From: Candidatus Magasanikiibacteriota bacterium
GTDB taxonomy: Bacteria > Patescibacteriota > Patescibacteriia > Magasanikbacterales > UBA922
Length of the DNA: 64,000 bases
Direction: 5' to 3'
NCBI GenBank assembly: GCA_016193335.1
Contig: JACPSK010000001.1
Span: 22,716 to 86,715 of the forward strand
Under the pieces are notes generated by a model that was given only the letters and a program-made list of their open reading frames with translations, did not search any database and was not told where the DNA came from. Of the stretch, positions 1-33,910 are shown piece after piece. A program made the position numbers and the translations under genes. Numbering within the stretch: position 1 is the stretch's first letter; the number at the start of each line of letters is the position of its first letter.

Positions 1-1917
1 AAAGTAATGGCAAATCCCTGTACAAAACTGCTGCCAAACCAAACCAAAAGCCCGCAGGTGATAAGCGTGGAAACATTACCGTCTCGTATAGATGACCAGG
101 CGCGGATAAATCCTTCCTCAATAGAAGTTTTGAGACTTTTGCCAGACCGCAATTCTTCTTTCATCCGCTCAAATATAAGCACATTAGCGTCCACAGCCAT
201 GCCAATGGAAAGAATAAAACCAGAAATTCCAGCCAAGGTGAGCGTTACTCCCATTACTTTAAATATCGCGAGGGTAAGAAAGGAATAAAGAAGCAAAGAT
301 ACGGCAGACAAAAGCCCGGGGAGACGATAGTACAAAACCATAAATAATACAATCAAAACGAGAGAAACAATACCCGCTTTGATACTCTGAGCAAGCGCTT
401 CTGAACCCAAACTGGCGCCAACAGCTTGCTGTGAAATAAGATTTATGGGAATAGGCAAAGCGCCGGCGTTTAATCTCTGGGACAAAAGCCTCGCTTCCTG
501 TATATTAAAACTCCCTGTTATAACGGCCTCGCCGTTTGAAATGGCTGTTTGCACGGTAGGAATGCTGATTGCCTCCCCGTCAAGAAAAATGGCTATGGGA
601 TCGCCCACGTGACGTTTGGTGATTTCTTCAAAGAGTTTCGCGCCTTCGCTGTCAAAACGCAAGGAAACCTGAATGGCGCCGGTGGTCTGTTGAGTAACCA
701 CTTCAGCGCGGTCCAGTTGTTTCCCCGAAAGACCCGTGGCTTTCCATTCACTTTGCGGAGGGACGATATCTGATTCGGATTTGCTGCGAACCAAAATACG
801 CCATAATTCATATTCTTTTTTCGTTTCTTCATTTGTCTTGTATATAATATGGTATCCGAACTGAGTTTCCACCGGCCCGATAATGTCACCGGTATTCGCG
901 TCAAAAACCGCCTGTTCAAAGGCCGGAACCATGGCGCCTTTTTTGAAAAAACCCAAAGATCCTCCTGTATTTTTATTTGATTCATCGCTCGAATTCTCAG
1001 CGGCCAACTCAGCAAAATTTTCCCCGTTCGCTTTATTGTAAATTTCCTCTGCCTTTTTAAAGGCTTCTTCTTTTGTATACACCGGATTTGAACAATTTTG
1101 AGCCCCCAAATAACAAATCAATATATGGCTGGCTTCCACTTCTTTTTGTCCTTCCCGCTCTTCTCCTCTCTTTAAGACATTGTAACCATCAAAACTTTTT
1201 ATCAATTCGGTACTGGTATCTTGGTTCTTAGACTTCTCAGCCCATTCATAGAGCGGAGCAGAAAGCGGAGTCTTTGGCAGATATTGTAAATATCCGCCAT
1301 TATTTTTGCTTGTTTGGTCTTCTGAGACTTCTCTGGCCACTTGTTCAAAATCTTCACCCTTTGCTATCCTTTTTAAAATACTGTCAGCGCGTTTTTCCGC
1401 GTCTTTATTGAATTCTTCCAACTGTTTGCGCTCTTCTTCTGTAAGAGAACGAGGAGCTTCAGTATTTTCTTCTTTAAATTCAAGAATCGGAGTTTCTCCT
1501 ATCATGTCTATAGCTTGGTGCACGTTGTTCAGGCCGGGAAGTTCTACCAGCAGCCTGTGACTGCTGCCAACCTGGGTGGTTTGTATGTTCGGTTCTCCTA
1601 CTCCCATACCATTTACTCTACGCTCTATCACGTCTCGTACACCTTCTACCGCGTCCTTGCGGCCGGAATCTTCTATGTTTTGCAAGTCTGCTTCATAGAC
1701 CAGGCTCACTCCGCCCTGAAGGTCAAGCCCAAGTTTAAAATTATTGTTCGGGAGCTCCGGCAGAGCTATTCCTATGTATGTTTTTGTCCACGAAACCGCT
1801 TTGTTGTAGAACCCGGGCATAACAAAAATACTCGAGGCCAAAAGCAGAGCGAATATGCCCACTATCCCCCAACGCAATTTTGATCTGATTTGTGCGGCGC
1901 TTTTTTTGTCTGCCATA
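1..1917 (-). CDS. secD: Protein translocase subunit SecD, C-terminally truncated by window edge; periplasmic head carries one complete and one partial parvulin-type PPIase-like segment
   Basis: Manual minus-strand translation from ATG at 1917: MADKKSAAQIRSKLRWGIVGIFALL (TM1), FKLGLDLQGGVSLVYEAD, LLVELPGLNN, IGETPILEFKEE, then ASHILICY...NTGGSLGFFKKGAMVPAFEQAVFDANTGDIIGPVETQFGYHIIYK (PpiC-like), then base domain and TM block ISGFILSIGMAVDANVLIFERMKEELRSGKS. The ORF is open at position 1, so it is absent from the ORF track. Confidence 0.8.
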
Positions 1918-2196: not shown

Positions 2197-2709
2197 TTGT
2201 TGATGAGAGGGGGAAGGCAAATGGAGAGATCATCAGATAATGATCGCACTGAGTTCACTCGGCGACGCGGAACTTTGGTCTCTATGACCAAGTTTACGGC
2301 CGAGGACGAGGCCGATCATTACAACGACTTTAATGTCGGCGCCACCATGCTTGTAGCCCGAGACACGCCTCACGGGCACCGTGAATATGCCACATTCTCC
2401 GCGGCCAACATGAAGCCGCACCGGGATGTGGTGAAGCTCTGCGCCGAGCGCATTGCCTTTGCCTGCCTGCGAAAGGCGCGCTGGACCCACGTGGTAGCGA
2501 TCGTGGTTTGCGGCCCTCCTCGTAAGGAGGATACCACGGCCACCCTGTGGCCTTGCGAGGTCTGCCGGCCCTGGCTCGACGCCATGCCGGAAATTGATGA
2601 TGATACCATCCTCCTTTGTGCCCACAACGGCACTGAAGAAGAGATGAGCTGGGGCAAGCTCATGGAGCTACACCCCGAAGATCGACGCTGTTCAGACCAC
2701 GACGAATAG
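2197..2709 (+). CDS. CDA-fold zinc deaminase-like protein (cytidine/blasticidin-S deaminase type, C-A-E ... P-C-x-x-C) on a high-GC island
   Basis: Motifs CAERIAF and PCEVCRPW preceded by a beta-strand FNVGATMLV. GC and GC3 much higher than flanks. Likely true start at MERSS (2221). Confidence 0.55.
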   Translation: MLMRGGRQMERSSDNDRTEFTRRRGTLVSMTKFTAEDEADHYNDFNVGATMLVARDTPHGHREYATFSAANMKPHRDVVKLCAERIAFACLRKARWTHVVAIVVCGPPRKEDTTATLWPCEVCRPWLDAMPEIDDDTILLCAHNGTEEEMSWGKLMELHPEDRRCSDHDE

Positions 2710-5734: not shown

Positions 5735-6016
5735 AAATACACTATGCGAGTTACAGAGATTTCGACAACATAAATTGCTATTTCCCTTCGAACAAATCCG
5801 TTTGGCTTGCTTATTTCATTCGCCTTCTTCACGGCAGAGTGAAAAAATTCATGCCACTATTTCTTATACTGTGTTTAAGAAGTCTGTCAGTGCGCGGCCT
5901 GACCTTCGAGATCCTCCTTGGGGATCGCCCGCGCGCGAGTAGAGAACGTGGAAAGAACGGAAGGCTAGGCGCGAGGCGCGCCTAGGGGTGGAAGGAGCGG
6001 AGCCGAGGGCCGGGGC

Positions 6017-7003
6017 CTACTGGAGGAAGCCCCAGGCGTAGCCGTTCATCGTCGCGATGACGGGCTGGCCGCTCTGGGTCACGGCGATCAGCCAGGTCCC
6101 GGCCGGGAGCTCGTAGCGCATGTCGGACTTCTGGCCCGTGGTGACGTCGATGACGTCGATGATCGCCCCGGACTCGGAGTCGCCGTTGACGCCGAGCATC
6201 TCCTCGGTGGCCGAGTTCCAGGCCAGCGCGCTGTAGGAGACGTGCTGGCCGTTGTTCCAGGCCTTCTGGAGGTCCGCGATCCCGTTGGCGCTCAGGTAGA
6301 CCGTCTTGCCGTCGTTGAGCTCGGCGAGCACGGACACCTTCTTGCCGCCGAAGGCCTCGAGGGAGATGACCTGCGTGACGTCGTCCTGGGTGAAGCCCGC
6401 GCCGAGCCGCGAGATCGTCTTCGCGTCGATCTCGATGATGACCGGCTTGGCCTCGTTGCCGATACCGGCCATGTAGAGCCGGTGGCTGCTGCGGTCCTGG
6501 GCCACCGCGGTGACGCTGCGGAGGCCGAGGCGAGCCATGGCGGTCTCGGTCTTGTCCTCGAGCTGGCCGTCGTCCTTCTTGCGGAAGAACTGGACCTTGA
6601 CCTCGCCGCTCGTGCGGAAGGCGTCCACGTTGAAGGTCTGGCCGCTCTCCAGCTGGCCGAGACCGCTCTGCTCGATGTGCTCCGAGAGCTCGGCCGAGGT
6701 GACGGACTGGTCGTCGATCCCGAGGGTCACGATCACGAGGTCGTCCTTCGTGTAGGTCCGCCGGATGCGCGCGGCGATCGTCTCCTCGGGGCTGGCCGTC
6801 TTGCCGTCGCCGAGGTCGATCTGACCGAGCTTGTAGAGCGAGCCGGGGACCATCTCCTCCGTCGTGCCGTAGCCGAAGACGGTGAGCCGGTGGTCGAGGT
6901 TGCCCAGCCCCATGAGGGCCAGGCCGCGCTGGACATCGATGTCCACCTTGTTGATGCGACGACCCGTGATGGGCGCCGCGCTCTCGAGCATGAACGTGGT
7001 CAT
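6017..7003 (-). CDS. Hypothetical protein encoded on a high-GC (about 67%) island, no recognisable domain
   Basis: Only frame with balanced amino-acid composition (K, T, I, Y present). Strong GC3 bias. Other listed ORFs in this region are Arg/Ala-rich alternative-frame artefacts. Confidence 0.55.
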   Translation of the reverse strand: MTTFMLESAAPITGRRINKVDIDVQRGLALMGLGNLDHRLTVFGYGTTEEMVPGSLYKLGQIDLGDGKTASPEETIAARIRRTYTKDDLVIVTLGIDDQSVTSAELSEHIEQSGLGQLESGQTFNVDAFRTSGEVKVQFFRKKDDGQLEDKTETAMARLGLRSVTAVAQDRSSHRLYMAGIGNEAKPVIIEIDAKTISRLGAGFTQDDVTQVISLEAFGGKKVSVLAELNDGKTVYLSANGIADLQKAWNNGQHVSYSALAWNSATEEMLGVNGDSESGAIIDVIDVTTGQKSDMRYELPAGTWLIAVTQSGQPVIATMNGYAWGFLQ

Positions 7004-22667: not shown

Positions 22668-25600
22668 TCACTTGATTAAAAAATCAAACATTGGTTTTTT
22701 GTCAGAAGACAAGCCCTTATACGTAAAAATATATTTTCTACGATTTTTGGCTTCATACACTATATTTTTATCTTTGCTCCACTGATCAGACACAGGCATA
22801 TTCATATTCTTATTTGTTTTTATTTTAACTAATCCTGTTTGGGAATTAAACTTATACATATCTATTAAAAAAACAATAGATCCATTTTCATAAAGAGCTT
22901 TTTGTCCGGCACAAATTTTATTCAAACCGATTTTCATTTTTAATGTCTCGGCGCAGTCAGCAACAGTGGGTTGTATTATATTGAATTCAAAATCAGCAAT
23001 TGTCCCCTTGCTACCCTTGTATATAAACGTATATATGTTTCCATCTCCCAACATATACTTCGCCGGTTTTCCGAGCGCCCATTCAGCACTCGCTGGCAAT
23101 CCGTCCAATTCAGATTCCATCTTATCCACCAGCATAATTTGAGAATCAAAATGATCTACAAACATCAAAAGTCTTTGATCCCCGTCTATATATTCGAGTT
23201 GCTGCTGAGGACACAATGTATTCGCACCTTTTTTTAAAACGAGATATTTGGCGCAAAAATTCCCGTCTTCATCGAATGACTCATCTTCCGGTATCGTTAT
23301 GATCCTGTCTATTTTATTGATAAGGTACGTTTTTTTAGAGCCACTCGGCCAATACACAAAAAGCTCTTTTATATCCGATGCTGTTTTTTTGCCCAATCCA
23401 AAATGCGCGATTCTTGGATCCTGCCCTCCAGATTGACGCGTTAAGAGTATTTGGTCGCTCGCCACTTGTCCATCAACAAAGCGCAGCTCCACGCGTGCTC
23501 CGATCGCGTCTCTATTGCTTTCGGCACCACGAAGACTAATTTGTAGCCAATGATGAGCTCCTCCTTTTTCATACAAAGAATTTTTATACAATTTATGATA
23601 CCACTTGGCCGTAGGTATATGCACGTCCAAATCGCCGTCACGATCATAATCTACCCAGACTGCGTTTGCGTCCCATGAATCATACTGATTGAATGTGCCT
23701 TGAACGCCCTCCAGCGCGGCGCGCTCTTCATAATCCTTGTGATTGCCCAGATCTCTAAATAGTCTATTGTATCCTTGCTTTGAATAGGTGAAAAAAATAT
23801 CAGGATTGCCGTCGTTATCATAATCTGTCCAGGTAATCGGACCCGCGCCCAGATGTGTTTCTGTCTTGGGAATGTAAGGACTCTGCATTTCAAAAAAAAT
23901 TTCGCCATTATAAGGCTGCATCGTGTTATTCACCAATATAGTATCAGTGGCAAAATCTTTCTCTAGGGTGGGCAATCGATCTTGGAGATAAATATCTATG
24001 TCTCCATCATTATCATAATCTTTAAAAGCAATATCGAGGTGATGAATACCTCCAGAACTTCCGGACACCTCAATCTTTTTTACGAACGAAAAAGATGAAC
24101 CGGACTGATTTTTAAATAAAAAGATACCATTCTTCTCCTCAGCGCTAGAAAAAGAACTTGACCCGAGTATGTCCAAAAAACCATCGTTGTCATAATCCAA
24201 AAAATATAGTCTATCCATCGTATGTGACAATCCCCCTACTAAGGTGTCTTCTTCAAAAATCCAAGGCTCTTTCTGGAAAAAAACTTTAATAGCAAAATAC
24301 GGAGGAACACCACCATAGATACCTGAGTCAACTATATCCAACAAGCCATTTTTATCTATATCAGCGATAGAAAAACTACTATAGCTATTAACATCCTCGT
24401 CAATGATTTTTTTGGAAAAATATCCTAACCCATTATTTTCCAGTATGAGCAACTGCTGATTTTTGGGAGTATCCACGATAGATAGATTGGCCACATCAGC
24501 AATAATATCCTGGTCTCCATCATTATCCATATCTGCCGTATGTACTCGTCTAACAATAAAATTTTCGTTAAAAATCGCGGCCTTTAATCCATTATAATCA
24601 GGCGGAATGTTGAAAAAACCCTTAGTATTAAAGGCAATAAAATACTGCATGGGGTCTTGGTCATGCTCTCCCACAAGTTCATCAATCCATTCATCCCCAT
24701 TCAACTGCGCCCAAATAACACCCCTGGCGTATCCAATCTTAAAAGGATTAATTATTGTATGGTTCTGTTCAATTCCCGCCTGTGCCGCGACATCTACGAA
24801 ATTACTGTCATTACCGGTCCCTACCACCTCTATGGGTGCCGCGGGGTTCTCCGCGTTGCTGAGAAAGCTGATGTTCCCTGATTCCACTGCTGCCTGTGTC
24901 GGAACAAATGAAAGCAACAAAGTAGTCTCGCCATATGCCGGTACGGAGAAAGGAAAATTTGTTTTTGACACGAAATGTGGATTATTGCTTTCCAATCCAG
25001 TAACAATCAAGGATTCACTCCCATGATTATACACTTCAACCTCATATGTTTGTTCAGACCCTATGGCAGAAAAAAAATCAATGTGATCCGGCGCATAAGA
25101 AATAAATGATGAAGGATTATCCAGGATTATACTCTCCATATCGAGCAGAGAATCAGCCCCGACACTGAATTCAATCGTTTTGTCGGCATGCCCTTTTTTA
25201 GAGAATTGCAATGAATAAGTCCCCGCAGGCAAGGCAAACTCGTATTGACCGTATTTATCCGTGTACAGCTCATACGACAAATTATTGAGCACAAGAGAGA
25301 TCCGGACAAATGGAACTCCCTTACCCACTGCGTTTTTGACGGTGCCATATACGGTCGCGTGGTTAAGCGCCAAATCTATGGCAGAAATAATATCTACAAT
25401 CCCGGCACCGGCATCCATATCTTTTCCATTATCAAATCCGACATTGACAGATGTAAATTGAAGAATCGATTTTATTTTTCCAGGGGAAAGATATGCCGTA
25501 TTTTTTTCAAAATAAGCTTGCTGGATAAGGGCAATCGCTCCTGTTACCATGGGAGCCGACATGGAAGTTCCGGAAAGTTCCTTATAGATGGCGCTTTCAA

Positions 25601-26948
25601 AACCTTCGTTGGGTTTATAATTTATGTATCCACCTTTTGGCACAGAAGACAATATGTTTGTTCCAGGTGCTGAAACATCTGGTTTTATATACTCTTCTCC
25701 CAAATAAACCGCAGGCCCTTTAGAACTTCCTGGATTGATTTCTCCATCTTCATCTGAATTGCCAACCAATAATAAAGGTGGGTATCTGTGTAGCCCTTTT
25801 ATAGAACCCGGTCCAGCGCCACCGGAATTTCCGGCCGAGAAAACCACGCTTATTCCCATATCCTCCAAAGCGTCAATCCAGTATGTCAATCCAGCAGTTA
25901 AACTGTTGATCCAAGAATTATTTACTACGATCGGATAATCATCGGTAGTAATATCATTATCCGGATTTGCCACCCACTCCAATGATGCGGGAGCGAAACC
26001 GCTTCGGGCAAACACATACGTTGAAGAAGGCGCCACGCCAATATATTTGTTCTCATCGACATTGGATTCTCCCTCTTTTGCCTCTCCTCCCAACACGATA
26101 CCGGCCACATGAGTACCATGAGAATTTGCGCTATAGGTAGGGGTTGAAATTTTATATCCGTCGAAAAACGCTAATTCTCCGGTGCCCGGACCGCTTTGTA
26201 TAGTATCCATTTTCCCTAGCAAAGCAGGGTGTTCCGCGTATATATCAGAATCAACAATGCCCACTCGAATCCCTTTTCCTGTGTATCCCTTTTCCCAAGC
26301 TTCAGGCGCTTTTATTGTTTCAGGGCCGTAAAAAGCCTTCGCGGCTGATTGGCTTTCTGCAAGGCCATCTGTTGCCTCGTCCGCCACTTCCTCGGCGTGC
26401 TCTATAATCGGGTACAGATCAATTATTTTAATGTCAGAGTTCGCGTTGAGACTAATAATCGTTTGAAATGAAATTTTGCCAGAAAATCCGCTTACCAGCG
26501 TGTACCAATGAAGATCGGTGATGTCGCCGTTTTGCTGTGCGCGGGCTATCAGGTTCTTGATTGAGTTTGTATCAGTATCTCTATCCAATTTTGCGGCCAC
26601 GTTTTGTTTGCGGCGGATAACTTCGCGATAATTACCCTGTACTCCTCGGGTGTCCGCCTGTTCTTCTAGGATGACCAACACATTATATGTTTGTTCTGGG
26701 GCACCTTCTAAAATTTGTTTTCTTAACTCAGGCGTAAGTTTTTCCAATGCATAAAGTGCGCTTTCATCTTCATACAAAATAAGTTCCTCATTCTCATCAG
26801 ATAAGTCTCTTCTTCCTTCTCTGTCATCTTGAGCAGGTGAGATACGCGAAAAACTTGCCACAGCGGCCAGCATGCTTATTCCCAAAAACATGCCAGCAAG
26901 CGCCAATTTCAAGTGAGTAGTTGTTTTTATGAGTTGTTTAGTCTCCAT
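22668..26948 (-). CDS. Giant secreted subtilisin-like (S8) serine peptidase with FG-GAP/VCBS-type repeats
   Basis: Signal peptide; S8 triad motifs VGIVDSDI, HGTHVAGIV, GTSMSAPMVTGAIALI; repeated D-x-D-x-D-G-D-x-D calcium-binding FG-GAP-like units (DMDNDGDQDII, DYDNDGDIDIY). Confidence 0.8.
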   Translation of the reverse strand: METKQLIKTTTHLKLALAGMFLGISMLAAVASFSRISPAQDDREGRRDLSDENEELILYEDESALYALEKLTPELRKQILEGAPEQTYNVLVILEEQADTRGVQGNYREVIRRKQNVAAKLDRDTDTNSIKNLIARAQQNGDITDLHWYTLVSGFSGKISFQTIISLNANSDIKIIDLYPIIEHAEEVADEATDGLAESQSAAKAFYGPETIKAPEAWEKGYTGKGIRVGIVDSDIYAEHPALLGKMDTIQSGPGTGELAFFDGYKISTPTYSANSHGTHVAGIVLGGEAKEGESNVDENKYIGVAPSSTYVFARSGFAPASLEWVANPDNDITTDDYPIVVNNSWINSLTAGLTYWIDALEDMGISVVFSAGNSGGAGPGSIKGLHRYPPLLLVGNSDEDGEINPGSSKGPAVYLGEEYIKPDVSAPGTNILSSVPKGGYINYKPNEGFESAIYKELSGTSMSAPMVTGAIALIQQAYFEKNTAYLSPGKIKSILQFTSVNVGFDNGKDMDAGAGIVDIISAIDLALNHATVYGTVKNAVGKGVPFVRISLVLNNLSYELYTDKYGQYEFALPAGTYSLQFSKKGHADKTIEFSVGADSLLDMESIILDNPSSFISYAPDHIDFFSAIGSEQTYEVEVYNHGSESLIVTGLESNNPHFVSKTNFPFSVPAYGETTLLLSFVPTQAAVESGNISFLSNAENPAAPIEVVGTGNDSNFVDVAAQAGIEQNHTIINPFKIGYARGVIWAQLNGDEWIDELVGEHDQDPMQYFIAFNTKGFFNIPPDYNGLKAAIFNENFIVRRVHTADMDNDGDQDIIADVANLSIVDTPKNQQLLILENNGLGYFSKKIIDEDVNSYSSFSIADIDKNGLLDIVDSGIYGGVPPYFAIKVFFQKEPWIFEEDTLVGGLSHTMDRLYFLDYDNDGFLDILGSSSFSSAEEKNGIFLFKNQSGSSFSFVKKIEVSGSSGGIHHLDIAFKDYDNDGDIDIYLQDRLPTLEKDFATDTILVNNTMQPYNGEIFFEMQSPYIPKTETHLGAGPITWTDYDNDGNPDIFFTYSKQGYNRLFRDLGNHKDYEERAALEGVQGTFNQYDSWDANAVWVDYDRDGDLDVHIPTAKWYHKLYKNSLYEKGGAHHWLQISLRGAESNRDAIGARVELRFVDGQVASDQILLTRQSGGQDPRIAHFGLGKKTASDIKELFVYWPSGSKKTYLINKIDRIITIPEDESFDEDGNFCAKYLVLKKGANTLCPQQQLEYIDGDQRLLMFVDHFDSQIMLVDKMESELDGLPASAEWALGKPAKYMLGDGNIYTFIYKGSKGTIADFEFNIIQPTVADCAETLKMKIGLNKICAGQKALYENGSIVFLIDMYKFNSQTGLVKIKTNKNMNMPVSDQWSKDKNIVYEAKNRRKYIFTYKGLSSDKKPMFDFLIK

Positions 26949-32857: not shown

Positions 32858-33910
32858 CTAGCTTCCTGTCTCATCTTTTAGATTATCAACAGTACTCGTG
32901 GCGGTTTTATCAAAAATGTCTTCAAAGGGATTATGGATATTGGCGTAAAGCCGTATATCGGCCTCAGCCAATTTGCGATCCATAAAGGCGGAAAAATTCG
33001 AACTCAGTCTCTTTTCAAGCACTTCCACAATATGGAACCCAAAGGCAGTGCGAACCAGTGTTTGAGACAAAGAAGGAACTTCCATGCTGAACACAGCTTC
33101 TTCAAATTCAGGAATCATCTGACCTTTGCCAAACCAACCAAGATCTCCACCTTCTTGGCTCGTGCTGTCTGAACCGAATTCTTTTGCAAGAGTCTCGAAA
33201 GACTCACCGTCCTGTATTCGTCTTAAAACTTCTTTAGCTTTTTTTCCCACAGCAGCCTCGTCTTTCTCGGCGTCAACTTTAAATAAAATATGGCGAGCGT
33301 GAATCTGGAGAAGAGCCAGAGGATCACCTTCGACAAGCGGTATTTTTTGGACAGCTTCAGCAAGCTTCTGTTCTCTGAGCGTAGGCACGATCACATGATC
33401 TACAAAGGTATCCTCATCCCAGCCAAAATTTTGAGTCAGCTGATTTTGCAAAGTCTCTGCATCTGGAAATTGCGCGGCGAAAGTATCACGCTCAGATTGA
33501 ATTTCTTCAGGAGAAATCCGGACATCATAGTCCGCGGCCACTTGCTTGATGAGGGCGTTTACTATAAGCCTGCTCAATGCTCTGTCTGAATAATCTTGGT
33601 CCTTGAGCAGATTGGCTTCTCCCTGAGACGCGGAATAAACTCGAAGAGCATTGAGATCTGAGATATAGTCTGAATACAAAATGGGCGTTTTGTTTATTGA
33701 AGCCACGGGAAGACGAAGAAGCTCCGCGCCCTTTACCACAAAGACTTGTTGCTTCGCGGCGCGGACGCCGAAACTTATAACCGCAATCGAGATCAAGAGA
33801 GCCAAAAGAAGCATGCTCAAAAAACCTCCACCGAATACAAGCAATACAGAGGGAGAAAACGTTGAAGCAGAGGCTTTGGAATCTTGAGTGTCCTTTTTAG
33901 ATAAAACCAT
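32858..33910 (-). CDS. Membrane-anchored parvulin-type peptidyl-prolyl isomerase (PrsA/SurA-like)
   Basis: N-terminal TM helix; PpiC domain ARHILFKV...GGDLGWFGKGQMIPEFEEAVFSM...AFGFHIV. Confidence 0.8.
   Translation of the reverse strand: MVLSKKDTQDSKASASTFSPSVLLVFGGGFLSMLLLALLISIAVISFGVRAAKQQVFVVKGAELLRLPVASINKTPILYSDYISDLNALRVYSASQGEANLLKDQDYSDRALSRLIVNALIKQVAADYDVRISPEEIQSERDTFAAQFPDAETLQNQLTQNFGWDEDTFVDHVIVPTLREQKLAEAVQKIPLVEGDPLALLQIHARHILFKVDAEKDEAAVGKKAKEVLRRIQDGESFETLAKEFGSDSTSQEGGDLGWFGKGQMIPEFEEAVFSMEVPSLSQTLVRTAFGFHIVEVLEKRLSSNFSAFMDRKLAEADIRLYANIHNPFEDIFDKTATSTVDNLKDETGS

What the first reader, a model, noticed from the sequence alone, without database searches (positions are those of the whole stretch)
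1..1917. SecD with parvulin-type PPIase segments (one complete, one partial) inserted in the periplasmic head domain
Between the conserved IGETPILEF segment and the P1-base/TM block, SecD carries one complete PpiC/parvulin domain (ASHILI ... NTGGSLGFFKKGAMVPAFEQAVF ... FGYHIIYK) and an upstream partial parvulin-like segment (KGEDFEQVAREVSEDQTSKNNGGYLQY). Fusing a foldase to the translocon motor would couple export and folding. I am not aware of this as a described SecD architecture. A separate PrsA/SurA-like parvulin is also encoded at 32858..33910.
Basis: partly seen in the sequence, partly recalled or inferred. Interest (0 to 1): 0.5.

Follow-up and report, generated by a model that had tools for sequence, protein, structure and literature searches.

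The report
SecD translocon motor with built-in foldase
A candidate-phyla-radiation bacterium carries a protein-export motor subunit (SecD) whose mobile outer head has two proline-isomerase (parvulin) domains built into it, one apparently active and nested inside an inactive, rearranged one. This is a conserved natural fusion of export and folding machinery that no paper I could find describes.

Summary
The minus-strand ORF at window 1..1916 (ATG at 1916, cut by the window edge; 679 aa on its own contig, with secF directly downstream) is a genuine SecD. About 225 residues are inserted between the base strand IGETPILEF and the P1-head subdomain, where Thermus SecDF has about 22.

Pfam finds two Rotamase stretches inside SecD. 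It is not a frameshift or chimera. All 120 listed closest homologs, about 20 clusters at 50% identity and 36 GTDB species loci share the architecture. They are Magasanik-, Uhr- and Falkowbacteria and other Patescibacteria.

The "partial" parvulin is not a fragment. Structure prediction, fold search and covariation (z = 5.9) indicate a nested pair:
- The outer parvulin is circularly permuted, with its first strand after the core, and has lost both catalytic histidines (N246, R373).
- A canonical parvulin with an intact catalytic set (H264, H356, D311, T351, M329, F333) and a co-varying cysteine pair sits in the outer domain's hairpin.

Relatives with a single insertion carry only a permuted parvulin, with both histidines invariant (108/108).

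The most likely function is a PrsA/SurA-like foldase riding on the proton-driven SecD head. This was not tested biochemically. I rate it a new variant of a known kind, of moderate interest.

The parts
1..1916 (-). secD coding sequence. Start codon at 1916-1914; the last 41 codons and the stop lie beyond the window start.
   Evidence: Translation has no stops. It is 100% identical to the 679-aa P0001. TIGR01129 scores 359.9 bits against a cutoff of 244.4. secF (300 aa) follows directly on the same contig, L081.
1818..1871 (-). TM1 (aa 16-33, WGIVGIFALLLASSIFVM). It places the following ~460 residues outside the cytoplasm.
   Evidence: Hydrophobic helix inside AF2 helix 4-32. The position matches TM1 of SecDF. 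Coordinates checked.
1467..1751 (-). N-terminal part of the P1 base (aa 56-150), ending in the nearly invariant strand IGETPILEF (1476-1502).
   Evidence: Pfam SecD_1st covers 91-151. It aligns to Thermus SecDF 31-118. T142, P143, I144, L145, E146 and F147 are invariant in 47 homologs.
1161..1466 (-). Core of the outer parvulin-like domain, parvA (aa 151-252): helices, beta2, beta3 and beta4. It is catalytically degenerate, with N246 (1179-1181) where the beta4 histidine should be. D200 is retained.
   Evidence: It is the second Rotamase stretch, and the NCBIfam PpiD model hits 157-249. BLASTP against parvB gives 30% identity, E 1e-9. The AF2 model of aa 139-258 (pLDDT 82.8) matches the PrsA, Pin1 and SurA parvulin domains at rmsd 1.9-2.8 A over 75-84 columns. 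N246 is Asn in 43/47 homologs.
1116..1187 (-). Ribbon strand 1 (aa 244-267, GYNVLKRGEEREGQKEVEASHILI). It is beta4 of parvA running on into beta1 of parvB.
   Evidence: AF2 DSSP shows an unbroken 24-residue strand. It covaries with aa 354-377 in antiparallel register i+j = 619-624, z = 5.9.
831..1148 (-). Inner, canonical parvulin domain, parvB (aa 257-362). It has the full catalytic and proline-pocket set: H264 (1125-1127), D311 (984-986), L321, M329, F333, T351 and H356 (849-851). It also carries a Cys pair, C268 (1113-1115) and C275 (1092-1094).
   Evidence: Rotamase_3 matches profile positions 2-113 of 116 at aa 246-361. H264 and H356 are histidine in all 162 double-insert sequences. The cysteines are both present or both absent. 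pLDDT is about 85-93.
786..857 (-). Ribbon strand 2 (aa 354-377, GYHIIYKTNEETKKEYELWRILVR). It is beta4 of parvB running back into the displaced beta1 of parvA (ELWRILV). R373 (798-800) sits where the other histidine should be.
   Evidence: AF2 DSSP shows an unbroken 24-residue strand. Covarying pairs include Y209-E370 (the top pair overall), N246-R373, G251-E370 and E253-K367. The homologous strand in single-insert SecDs reads xSHILIKT, with an invariant His.
447..785 (-). P1 head subdomain proper (aa 378-490).
   Evidence: Pfam SecDF_P1_head covers 393-489, E 1.6e-28. It aligns to Thermus SecDF from residue 141.
3..446 (-). TM2-TM6 region (aa 491-638 within the window), with the essential TM4 aspartate D576 (189-191).
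   Evidence: Pfam SecD_SecF_C. GMAVDANVL aligns to Thermus GAAVDGNVL, so D576 matches D340. D576 is invariant.
32858..33910 (-). Separate membrane-anchored PrsA/PpiD-like foldase (350 aa). It is not part of SecD, but it shows that the genome also keeps a free-standing parvulin chaperone.
   Evidence: SurA_N_3 (E 9.7e-9) plus Rotamase_3 (E 2.7e-27). It has HIL at residue 207 and HIV at 293, and an N-terminal hydrophobic segment.

Best explanation
The gene encodes the SecD half of a split SecD/SecF proton-driven translocation motor in a Candidatus Magasanikbacteria (Patescibacteria) genome. A two-domain parvulin module has been built into the mobile extracytoplasmic P1 head. It sits exactly where the base strand (IGETPILEF) enters the head.

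Shown:
- Both parvulin homologies and their position inside SecD.
- Conservation of the architecture across Patescibacteria.
- Invariance of the catalytic residues of the inner domain.
- Loss of both histidines in the outer domain.
- An intact SecD core (TM4 Asp) and an adjacent secF.

Strongly inferred (from AF2 secondary structure, conservation logic and covariation): the two domains are nested.
- The outer domain (parvA) is a circularly permuted parvulin. Its histidine-bearing first strand follows the core instead of preceding it.
- The canonical inner domain (parvB) is inserted at the tip of parvA's beta4-beta1' hairpin through a long two-stranded ribbon.
- Single-insert relatives carry only a permuted parvulin, and there it looks fully active.

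Inferred mechanism (not tested):
1. The P1 head swings over the SecYEG exit and grips the emerging unfolded chain, as in the published SecDF power-stroke/ratchet model.
2. The attached module then acts as a built-in PrsA/SurA-like foldase.
3. ParvB catalyses prolyl cis/trans isomerisation of the newly exported segment.
4. The degenerate parvA offers a non-catalytic binding or scaffolding surface, like SurA P1 or the PpiD parvulin domain.

This makes covalent an association that other bacteria achieve with separate proteins.
For: Domain content:
- The isolated parvA model matches PrsA, Pin1 and SurA parvulins at rmsd 1.9-2.8 A, but the ILEFKE segment does not form its first strand.

Conservation of the architecture:
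- All 120 listed closest homologs (58-66% identical) share it.
- About 20 of the top 150 representatives at 50% identity have base-parvA-parvB-head-TM.
- 36 GTDB species loci have it with secF immediately downstream.
- The window's own contig has secF directly after secD.

Active site:
- H264 and H356 are histidine in all 162 double-insert sequences.
- D311 is Asp or Glu, T351 is Thr or Ser, and F333 is invariant.
- The C268/C275 pair is present or absent together.

Nested topology:
- AF2 gives unbroken strands at 244-267 and 354-377, each 24 residues, with pLDDT 85-94 across the insertion.
- The antiparallel covariation band i+j = 619-624 scores z = 5.9, and 0 of 2,260 random window pairs reach it.
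- The hairpin alternatives give no signal. Y209-E370 is the top pair and N246-R373 also covaries.

Permutation in single-insert SecDs:
- The beta4 His and the post-core xSHILIKT His are invariant in 108/108.
- There is no His in the N-terminal strand.
- Pfam Rotamase_3 begins only at profile position 31.

Motor: TM4 Asp D576 is conserved.

Functional precedent:
- AlphaFold models dock both SurA parvulin domains on the SecDF P1 head, and electron microscopy places SurA at the periplasmic domains of the holo-translocon (PMC9987972).
- A PrsA-like complex with an active PPIC domain sits on the Mycoplasma Sec translocon through SecDF (bioRxiv 10.1101/2025.04.25.650208; 10.1101/2024.09.05.611430).
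- The P1-head cavity contacts precursors (PMC5974789).
Against: - No biochemical evidence exists. PPIase activity, substrate binding and any effect on export are all untested.
- Conserved parvulin residues can also reflect fold stability, and in B. subtilis PrsA the PPIase activity is dispensable for secretion (PMC12445088).
- I had no 3D coordinates or PAE. The nested topology rests on DSSP strings, conservation and covariation.
- The covariation is not fully independent of AF2. ILEFKE is too invariant to covary, so it cannot be excluded on that ground.
- The overall pTM of the full model is low (0.40), so the position of the module relative to the head cavity and SecY is unknown.
- The permutation score test was weak. 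Placing the post-core strand first gained 1.2-9.3 bits in 3 of 6 single-insert proteins and nothing in the others.
- The genome keeps a separate PrsA-like protein, so the fused module is not the only foldase.
- Both inserted domains evolve faster than the SecD core. Mean pairwise identity is 0.49 for parvA and 0.61 for parvB, against 0.71-0.74 for the core.
Confidence: 0.7

Rival explanations
1. The parvulin domains are non-catalytic. They serve only as a holdase or substrate-binding extension, or as a lid or spacer, of the P1 head. For example, they could enlarge the precursor-binding surface or reach through the cell wall or S-layer of a monoderm cell. The 'catalytic' residues would be conserved for fold stability.
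For: ParvA has clearly lost both histidines. SurA P1 and the PpiD parvulin domain are known inactive binding modules (established knowledge; PMC9643414 was listed). The PPIase activity of B. subtilis PrsA is dispensable for secretion (PMC12445088). The P1 head is a promiscuous precursor-binding element (PMC5974789).
Against: ParvB keeps the complete dyad and pocket in all 162 double-insert sequences, and the single-insert domain keeps it in 108/108, while parvA in the same proteins has been free to lose it. That contrast is what selection on catalysis predicts, not selection on fold alone. The Pin1-C113 position is Asp, Glu or Cys.
Confidence: 0.2
2. The linear reading is right. There is one functional parvulin preceded by a decaying remnant of a tandem duplicate, and the partial segment has no role of its own.
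For: ParvA is the fastest-evolving part of the protein, with pairwise identity 0.49. It lacks the histidines and scores weakly against parvulin profiles, at 25-55 bits.
Against: ParvA is predicted with pLDDT about 90 and matches solved parvulins at about 2-2.8 A. It keeps its own conserved positions: S198, E199, D200, K204, N206, G208, Y209, G244, K249, R250 and G251 are at least 90% conserved. It is present in every double-insert SecD down to 35% identity. It covaries with the strand after parvB. One Magasanikbacteria SecD (L043) keeps parvA alone.
Confidence: 0.05
3. The PPIase acts in cis or on partner subunits rather than on exported clients. It would isomerise a proline in SecD, SecF or SecY as a conformational switch that gates or times head movement.
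For: The module sits at the base-to-head junction that moves during the F/I transitions. Conserved prolines flank it, P143 and the near-invariant PP at 386-387.
Against: No precedent in SecDF is known to me. Parvulins of this Asp-type, non-phospho class are general foldases. Free-standing parvulin chaperones dock at the same place in other bacteria and contact substrate density.
Confidence: 0.04
4. It is an artefact: a frameshifted or chimeric assembly joining a parvulin gene to secD.
For: None beyond the a priori possibility in metagenome-assembled genomes.
Against: The insertion lies inside SecD, with SecD sequence in the same frame on both sides. The identical protein was found on 6 contigs, three of them shown from separate sequencing runs. 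Hundreds of homologs from many projects share it.
Confidence: 0.01

Closest known systems
Canonical SecD / SecDF (Thermus thermophilus SecDF, PDB 3AQP/5YHF; Deinococcus 5XAP; E. coli SecD)
   Same: It has the same TM1, P1 base, P1 head and TM2-6 layout, the conserved TM4 aspartate, and secF adjacent. It exceeds the TIGR01129 cutoff, and Foldseek's top hits are SecDF structures.
   Different: About 225 extra residues (two parvulin domains) replace the ~22 residues that follow the LEF strand at the entry to the P1 head. None of the solved SecDF chains matched shows an inserted parvulin.
PrsA (Bacillus subtilis and other Firmicutes), a membrane-tethered extracytoplasmic parvulin foldase of monoderm bacteria
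   Same: ParvB is the Asp-type, non-phospho-specific parvulin most similar in sequence and fold to the PrsA PPIase domain. It is tethered at the outer face of the membrane of a likely monoderm cell and is presumed to act on freshly exported proteins.
   Different: It has no lipoprotein anchor and no NC (SurA-like) chaperone domain, and there is no evidence of dimerisation. The tether is the SecD motor itself. PrsA family models score far below their cutoffs (91 against 343 bits).
SurA (E. coli), with two parvulin domains: P1 inactive and substrate-binding, P2 active
   Same: It pairs a degenerate parvulin with an apparently active one. AlphaFold models in PMC9987972 place both SurA parvulin domains on the SecDF P1 head, which is where this SecD carries its own.
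   Different: SurA is a soluble periplasmic protein of diderms. Its parvulins are inserted in tandem in a SurA N/C core, not nested, and neither is circularly permuted. The SurA model scores 57 against a cutoff of 394 bits.
PpiD/YfgM at SecYEG (E. coli), and the Mycoplasma pneumoniae PrsA-like 'dome' (Mpn444/436/489) bound to the Sec translocon through SecDF
   Same: These are parvulin-fold chaperones stationed at the translocon exit. In Mycoplasma only one PPIC domain keeps its catalytic residues, and it contacts the substrate density.
   Different: Those are separate polypeptides that bind non-covalently. Here the parvulins are part of the SecD chain and would move with the proton-driven head.
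Single-insert SecD of other Patescibacteria (for example P0271; L036, L044, L050, L062, L067, L079)
   Same: The insertion point is the same, the long first helix is the same, and so is the post-core strand leading into the head.
   Different: They have one parvulin only, circularly permuted, with both histidines intact. The window's protein has that outer domain degenerate and a second, canonical parvulin nested in its hairpin.

Membership tests
SecD (protein translocase subunit SecD, TIGR01129) | Sequence match above the curated family cutoff | tested here: met
   TIGR01129 scores 359.9 bits against a cutoff of 244.4. The match comes in two stretches because the insertion interrupts it.
SecD (protein translocase subunit SecD, TIGR01129) | TM1, a large extracytoplasmic P1 (base plus head), then five TM helices | tested here: met
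   Pfam finds SecD_1st, SecDF_P1_head and SecD_SecF_C in that order. AF2 gives helices at 4-32 and at 502-662. Alignment to 3AQP agrees.
SecD (protein translocase subunit SecD, TIGR01129) | Essential TM4 aspartate of the proton pathway (Thermus D340) | tested here: met
   D576 aligns to D340 and is invariant in 47 homologs.
SecD (protein translocase subunit SecD, TIGR01129) | Partner SecF encoded alongside | tested here: met
   A 300-aa SecF (Sec_GG, SecD_SecF_C) starts 5 bases after the last base of the secD gene as called on the same contig, L081. The same arrangement is seen in the related loci.
SecD (protein translocase subunit SecD, TIGR01129) | Proton-motive-force-dependent stimulation of translocation | not testable with these tools
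   This needs reconstitution or genetics.
Parvulin / PpiC-type PPIase (Pfam PF00639, PF13616): inner domain parvB | Profile match above gathering score over the whole domain, including beta1 | tested here: met
   Rotamase_3 scores 149.8 bits against 22.5, covering profile positions 2-113 of 116 at aa 246-361. Rotamase scores 131.4 bits.
Parvulin / PpiC-type PPIase (Pfam PF00639, PF13616): inner domain parvB | Histidine dyad, Cys/Asp, Thr and the hydrophobic proline pocket (Pin1 H59, C113, T152, H157, L122, M130, F134) | tested here: met
   H264, T351, H356, L321, M329 and F333 map onto these residues. Conservation is shown.
Parvulin / PpiC-type PPIase (Pfam PF00639, PF13616): inner domain parvB | Measured prolyl isomerase activity | not testable with these tools
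Parvulin fold: outer domain parvA | Parvulin fold (four-stranded sheet plus four helices) | tested here: met
   The AF2 model of aa 139-258 matches PrsA, Pin1, SurA and Par14 with Foldseek probability 1.00 and rmsd 1.9-2.8 A over 75-84 columns. Covariation assigns the fourth strand (beta1) to aa 366-377.
Parvulin fold: outer domain parvA | Canonical strand order (beta1 at the N-terminus) | tested here: not met
   The N-terminal ILEFKE is not modelled as a strand in the isolated domain. It never aligns to the profile's beta1 positions. The His-bearing strand lies after the core in single-insert homologs.
Parvulin fold: outer domain parvA | Catalytic histidine dyad | tested here: not met
   N246 (Asn in 43/47) and R373 (Arg in 43/47) occupy the two positions. 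Both positions vary across the wider family.
PrsA foldase family (NCBIfam NF002827, NF002846) | Family-level match including the NC chaperone domain | tested here: not met
   It scores 91.1 bits against a cutoff of 343, and 83.0 against 361. Only the parvulin part aligns.
SurA (NF008038) and PpiD (NF008054) | Family-level match with the SurA N/C core or the PpiD chaperone domains | tested here: not met
   It scores 57.4 bits against 394 for SurA and 51.7 against 493 for PpiD. It resembles them in function only.

The most novel reading that the evidence does not exclude
The fusion is a 'Rosetta stone' showing that the SecDF P1 head and parvulin chaperones form one functional unit in bacteria generally. 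In these Patescibacteria the proton-driven swing of the head would mechanically cycle the attached isomerase on and off the emerging chain. That would make it an energy-coupled foldase outside the cytoplasm, where no ATP is available. The nested, circularly permuted parvulin pair would be a previously unrecorded way of building a parvulin module. The small membrane-anchored 'P1-head + parvulin' proteins (P0165, P0227) would be a second, independent expression of the same partnership.
Probability: 0.25. Interest if true: 0.8.

Novelty: new variant of a known kind. Interest (0 to 1): 0.55.

Why it matters
How exported proteins are handed from the Sec channel to folding helpers outside the cytoplasm is an open question. 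There is no ATP there, and the evidence that SecDF recruits chaperones such as SurA, PpiD or PrsA-like proteins is recent. It rests largely on low-resolution electron microscopy, cross-links and structure predictions.

A natural, widely conserved covalent fusion of parvulin domains to the moving head of SecD is independent evolutionary evidence for that partnership. It also offers a stable single-chain object for structural and biochemical study.

The fusion adds to the list of unusual features of candidate-phyla-radiation bacteria, which have tiny genomes. And it provides what appears to be an undescribed circular permutation and nesting of the parvulin fold.

The components themselves (SecD, parvulin) are well known, and no function was measured. 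The significance is therefore moderate rather than high.

Tried and rejected
1. My first translation, from 1917, was out of frame. The ATG is at 1916.
2. Frameshift or chimera: rejected, as given under the rival explanations.
3. ILEFKE as the first strand of parvA. It looked plausible from the motif resemblance (ETPILEF against ASHILIC) and from the full-length DSSP. I rejected it for three reasons:
   - It is not a strand in the isolated-domain model.
   - It adds nothing to the profile scores.
   - The strand after parvB covaries with beta4 and beta2 of parvA.
   ILEFKE is too invariant to be tested by covariation.
4. Tandem (side-by-side) permuted domains, each closed by its own hairpin. 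Rejected because there is no break in either 24-residue strand and no hairpin covariation (-0.012 and 0.009 against 0.035 for the nested band). It would also split the two invariant histidines between two half-broken sites.
5. Linker-length covariation as a test of the ribbon was inconclusive. Lengths were 18/17 in 136 of 168 sequences and 24/24 in two, but 27/17 or 26/17 in six.
6. The artificial permutation test gave only modest gains: +1.2 to +9.3 bits in 3 of 6 single-insert proteins.
7. Full-length Foldseek against the PDB returned only the expected SecDF, SurA and RND hits, with no information on domain arrangement.
9. The original SecDF structure paper (PMC3697915) is not held. I used the 2018 review instead.
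10. MAG labels outside Patescibacteria (Gammaproteobacteria, Lysobacteraceae, Binatia, Hyphomicrobiales) are not evidence of wider distribution:
   - The 'Lysobacteraceae' contig is 30% GC.
   - All these SecDs have their nearest relatives among the Patescibacteria-type SecDs in the set.
11. The direction of evolution between the single and double forms could not be settled. The single insert has a parvA-like first helix and a parvB-like core.
Full report
**1. What is in the sequence**

The feature lies on the minus strand. My first translation, from 1917, was out of frame. From the ATG at 1916 the frame stays open for 638 codons to the window edge.

The complete protein is in public databases as P0001. 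It is 679 aa, 100% identical, and named 'protein translocase subunit SecD [Candidatus Magasanikbacteria bacterium]', with a longest contig of 686,675 bp. On that contig a 300-aa secF follows immediately (L081). So this is a split SecD/SecF system whose 3' end falls outside the window.

Pfam places the domains in this order:
- SecD_1st at aa 91-151
- Rotamase_3 and Rotamase with two stretches (best 246-361, E 5.8e-44)
- SecDF_P1_head at aa 393-489
- SecD_SecF_C at aa 492-637

TIGR01129 (secD) is exceeded, at 359.9 bits against a cutoff of 244.4. The PrsA, SurA and PpiD family models score far below their cutoffs.

Against Thermus SecDF (3AQP), aa 56-150 align to 31-118 and aa 376-659 align to 141-423. 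About 225 residues therefore stand where Thermus has about 22, right after the LEF strand that leads from the P1 base into the head. TM1 (aa 16-33) puts all of this outside the cytoplasm. The TM4 aspartate of the proton pathway is conserved: D576 matches Thermus D340.

**2. Not an artefact, and not rare**

- All 120 listed closest homologs (58-66% identity, about 676-716 aa) carry the same Pfam set. They come from NCBI, JGI, ENA and Logan assemblies.
- I searched 1.84 billion cluster representatives at 50% identity with the insertion alone, then typed the top 150 with home-made HMMs. About 20 were base-parvA-parvB-head-TM proteins, with 34-46% identity over the insertion.
- In one-genome-per-species GTDB contigs, 36 loci have the double insertion with secF next door. 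They carry names such as Magasanikbacteria, Uhrbacteria, Falkowbacteria, Parcubacteria and Patescibacteria.
- A few contigs are labelled Gammaproteobacteria, Lysobacteraceae, Binatia or Hyphomicrobiales. The 'Lysobacteraceae' one is 30% GC, and all of their SecDs have their nearest relatives among the Patescibacteria-type SecDs in the set. I treat these labels as binning or naming errors.

**3. The downstream domain (parvB, aa 257-362) looks catalytically competent**

H264 and H356 are histidine in all 162 double-insert sequences examined. D311 is Asp or Glu, T351 is Thr or Ser, and F333 is invariant. M329 and L321 are nearly invariant.

An alignment to human Pin1 maps H264, L321, M329, F333, T351 and H356 onto H59, L122, M130, F134, T152 and H157. 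D311 falls at or next to C113, the position that is Asp in PrsA-type parvulins. The Pin1 sequence and the PrsA rule come from my own knowledge.

C268 and C275, in the beta1-alpha1 loop, are both cysteine or both replaced (QA, SA, AS). They are also among the top covarying pairs. This suggests a disulfide.

**4. The upstream 'partial' domain (parvA) is a whole fold, rearranged and degenerate**

It is homologous to parvB from helix 1 to strand 4 (BLASTP 30% identity, E 1e-9). The PpiD model also hits it.

An AF2 model of aa 139-258 alone (pLDDT 82.8) superposes on the PrsA, Pin1, SurA and Par14 parvulin domains at 1.9-2.8 A over 75-84 columns. In that model the ILEFKE segment is not a strand, and the sheet is incomplete.

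In the full-length model (pLDDT 79.8 overall, 85-94 across the insertion) there are two unbroken 24-residue strands, 244-267 and 354-377.

The clue to their meaning came from relatives with a single insertion (L036, L044, L050, L062, L067, L079, plus 108 clusters found with P0271). These have a parvulin core ending FGYHIIKK, a hairpin of 20-46 residues, then xASHILIKTKS running into the P1 head. Both histidines are invariant in 108/108, and the Pin1-C113 position is Asp (103), Cys (4) or Glu (1). There is no histidine in the N-terminal strand TPILEFKE. Pfam Rotamase_3 starts only at profile position 31 in these proteins. That describes a circularly permuted parvulin, with its first strand moved to the C-terminal side.

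In the window's protein the equivalent strand is ELWRILV (aa 370-376), after parvB. The two dyad positions of parvA are N246 and R373.

**5. Nested rather than tandem**

If each core closed its sheet with the strand that follows it, H264 would pair with N246 and H356 with R373. That would give two half-broken sites, each with one unexplained invariant histidine.

If the two long strands instead pair with each other, parvB has the intact dyad (H264/H356) and parvA the degenerate one (N246/R373).

I tested this by covariation on 162 double-insert sequences (effective number 131):

| Pairing tested | Mean APC-corrected mutual information |
|---|---|
| Antiparallel band i+j = 619-624 between the two strands | 0.035 |
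| Random window pairs (n = 2,260) | -0.0003 ± 0.006 |
| Hairpin within 244-267 | -0.012 |
| Hairpin within 354-377 | 0.009 |

The nested band stands at z = 5.9, and none of the random window pairs reaches it. The strongest pair in the whole region is Y209 (beta2 of parvA) with E370. N246-R373, G251-E370 and E253-K367 are also in the top 40.

So the canonical parvB sits at the tip of the beta4-beta1' hairpin of a permuted parvA, joined by a two-stranded ribbon. This is an inference from secondary structure, conservation and covariation. I had no coordinates, and AF2 itself uses covariation.

The order of events is unresolved. The single-insert domain has a parvA-like first helix (31 against 1.6 bits) but a parvB-like core (73 against 38 bits). 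One Magasanikbacteria SecD (L043) keeps only a degenerate parvA.

**6. How it most likely works**

Published work describes the SecDF P1 head as a mobile element. It has an amphiphilic cavity that contacts precursors and swings between Super-F, F and I forms under proton flow (PMC5974789).

Recent studies place parvulin chaperones at this spot in other bacteria:
- SurA binds the holo-translocon at the periplasmic domains. AlphaFold docks both SurA parvulin domains on the SecDF P1 head (PMC9987972).
- In Mycoplasma pneumoniae, PrsA-like proteins form a chamber bound to the Sec translocon through SecDF. Substrate density touches the one PPIC domain that keeps its catalytic residues (bioRxiv 10.1101/2025.04.25.650208; 10.1101/2024.09.05.611430).

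The simplest reading is that these Patescibacteria made the association covalent. ParvB would isomerise prolines in the emerging chain, and parvA would supply a binding or scaffold surface, like SurA P1 or the PpiD parvulin domain.

What is shown is the anatomy and the conservation. What is inferred is activity, client contact and any coupling to head movement.

Caveats:
- PrsA's isomerase activity is dispensable in B. subtilis (PMC12445088).
- The genome keeps a separate PrsA-like gene.
- The inserted domains evolve faster than the SecD core. Pairwise identity is 0.49 for parvA and 0.61 for parvB, against 0.71-0.74 for the core.

**7. Comparison and novelty**

The protein is a member of the SecD family. 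Its inner domain is a member of the parvulin family. It is not a PrsA, SurA or PpiD, because all three family tests failed.

Nine full-text searches found no description of a SecD-parvulin fusion or of a permuted parvulin. The library lacks most subscription journals, and I could not query InterPro. The sequences themselves are public, are labelled plain SecD, and have Rotamase hits precomputed.

I class it as a new variant of a known kind: known parts, in an undescribed and structurally unusual combination. Its value is as evolutionary support for SecDF-chaperone coupling. Interest 0.55.

**8. A related item outside the window**

Two small complete proteins from metagenomes (P0165 at 297 aa, P0227 at 281 aa) combine a membrane anchor, a SecDF_P1_head domain (Pfam E about 3e-16) and a parvB-like parvulin with the same HILICY...C motif. 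This is a second pairing of the same two modules. No such gene lies in this window.

Noticed in passing
window 5900-7000; ORF 6017..7003 (-): A 1.1-kb island of 67-69% GC sits in a genome of about 42% GC. It encodes a 328-aa protein of normal-looking composition. The protein has no Pfam or Rfam match, and its only match in 5.8 billion proteins is itself (NCBI hypothetical HYY51_00150, seen on 9 contigs). It is an ORFan with foreign composition, possibly a recent transfer from a high-GC source.
   Followed up: partly
P0165 (297 aa) and P0227 (281 aa), metagenome proteins; not in the window: These are small membrane-anchored proteins made of a SecDF_P1_head domain (Pfam E about 3e-16) followed by a canonical parvulin. 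The P0165 parvulin is 54% identical to the window's parvB (P0227 about 56%) and carries the same Cys-pair motif. They are an independent pairing of the P1-head and parvulin modules.
   Followed up: partly
L036, L044, L050, L062, L067, L079; P0271-P0390: A large group of Patescibacteria SecDs (about 535-565 aa) carries a single, circularly permuted parvulin that looks fully active. The spacing between its two histidines falls into two length classes, 20-29 and 34-46 residues. The longer hairpins were not examined.
   Followed up: partly
L005 (5476-8565) and L032 (1517-4654): In these two loci the double-insert SecD and SecF lie in one stop-free reading frame (1,030 and 1,046 codons). This suggests fused SecDF versions of the same architecture. 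I did not check for sequencing errors.
   Followed up: no
L001, L003, L004, L006 and others; L011, L025, L036: Many GTDB-representative contigs carrying this SecD are titled 'uncultured Gammaproteobacteria', 'Lysobacteraceae', 'Binatia' or 'Hyphomicrobiales'. The 'Lysobacteraceae' contig is 30% GC. L011 ('Binatia') is 65% GC, yet its SecD is closest to L010 and to an Uhrbacteria SecD. The record names look unreliable for these MAGs.
   Followed up: partly
window 32858..33910 (-): A free-standing, membrane-anchored SurA_N + Rotamase protein (PrsA/PpiD-like) with both catalytic histidines present. The fused SecD module does not replace the stand-alone foldase.
   Followed up: yes
window 22668..26948 (-): A 1,426-aa protein combining a subtilase (Peptidase_S8), CarboxypepD_reg, FG-GAP repeats and an ASPIC/UnbV domain. 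It is a large, probably secreted or surface protease and a likely Sec client.
   Followed up: partly
window 2197..2709 (+): The ORF divergent from secD has only a sub-threshold cytidine/deoxycytidylate deaminase match (19.5 bits against a cutoff of 25), with a PCxxC motif visible. On the related contigs the gene called here is a 162-aa product on the opposite strand, so the true gene is uncertain.
   Followed up: no
L037-L080 (Bacteroidota and others): The parvulin pattern also pulled out 640-800-aa proteins with two parvulin domains at about residues 120-350. Each is followed by a second 430-470-aa parvulin protein. These look like PpiD/SurA-like gene pairs and are unrelated to SecD.
   Followed up: no
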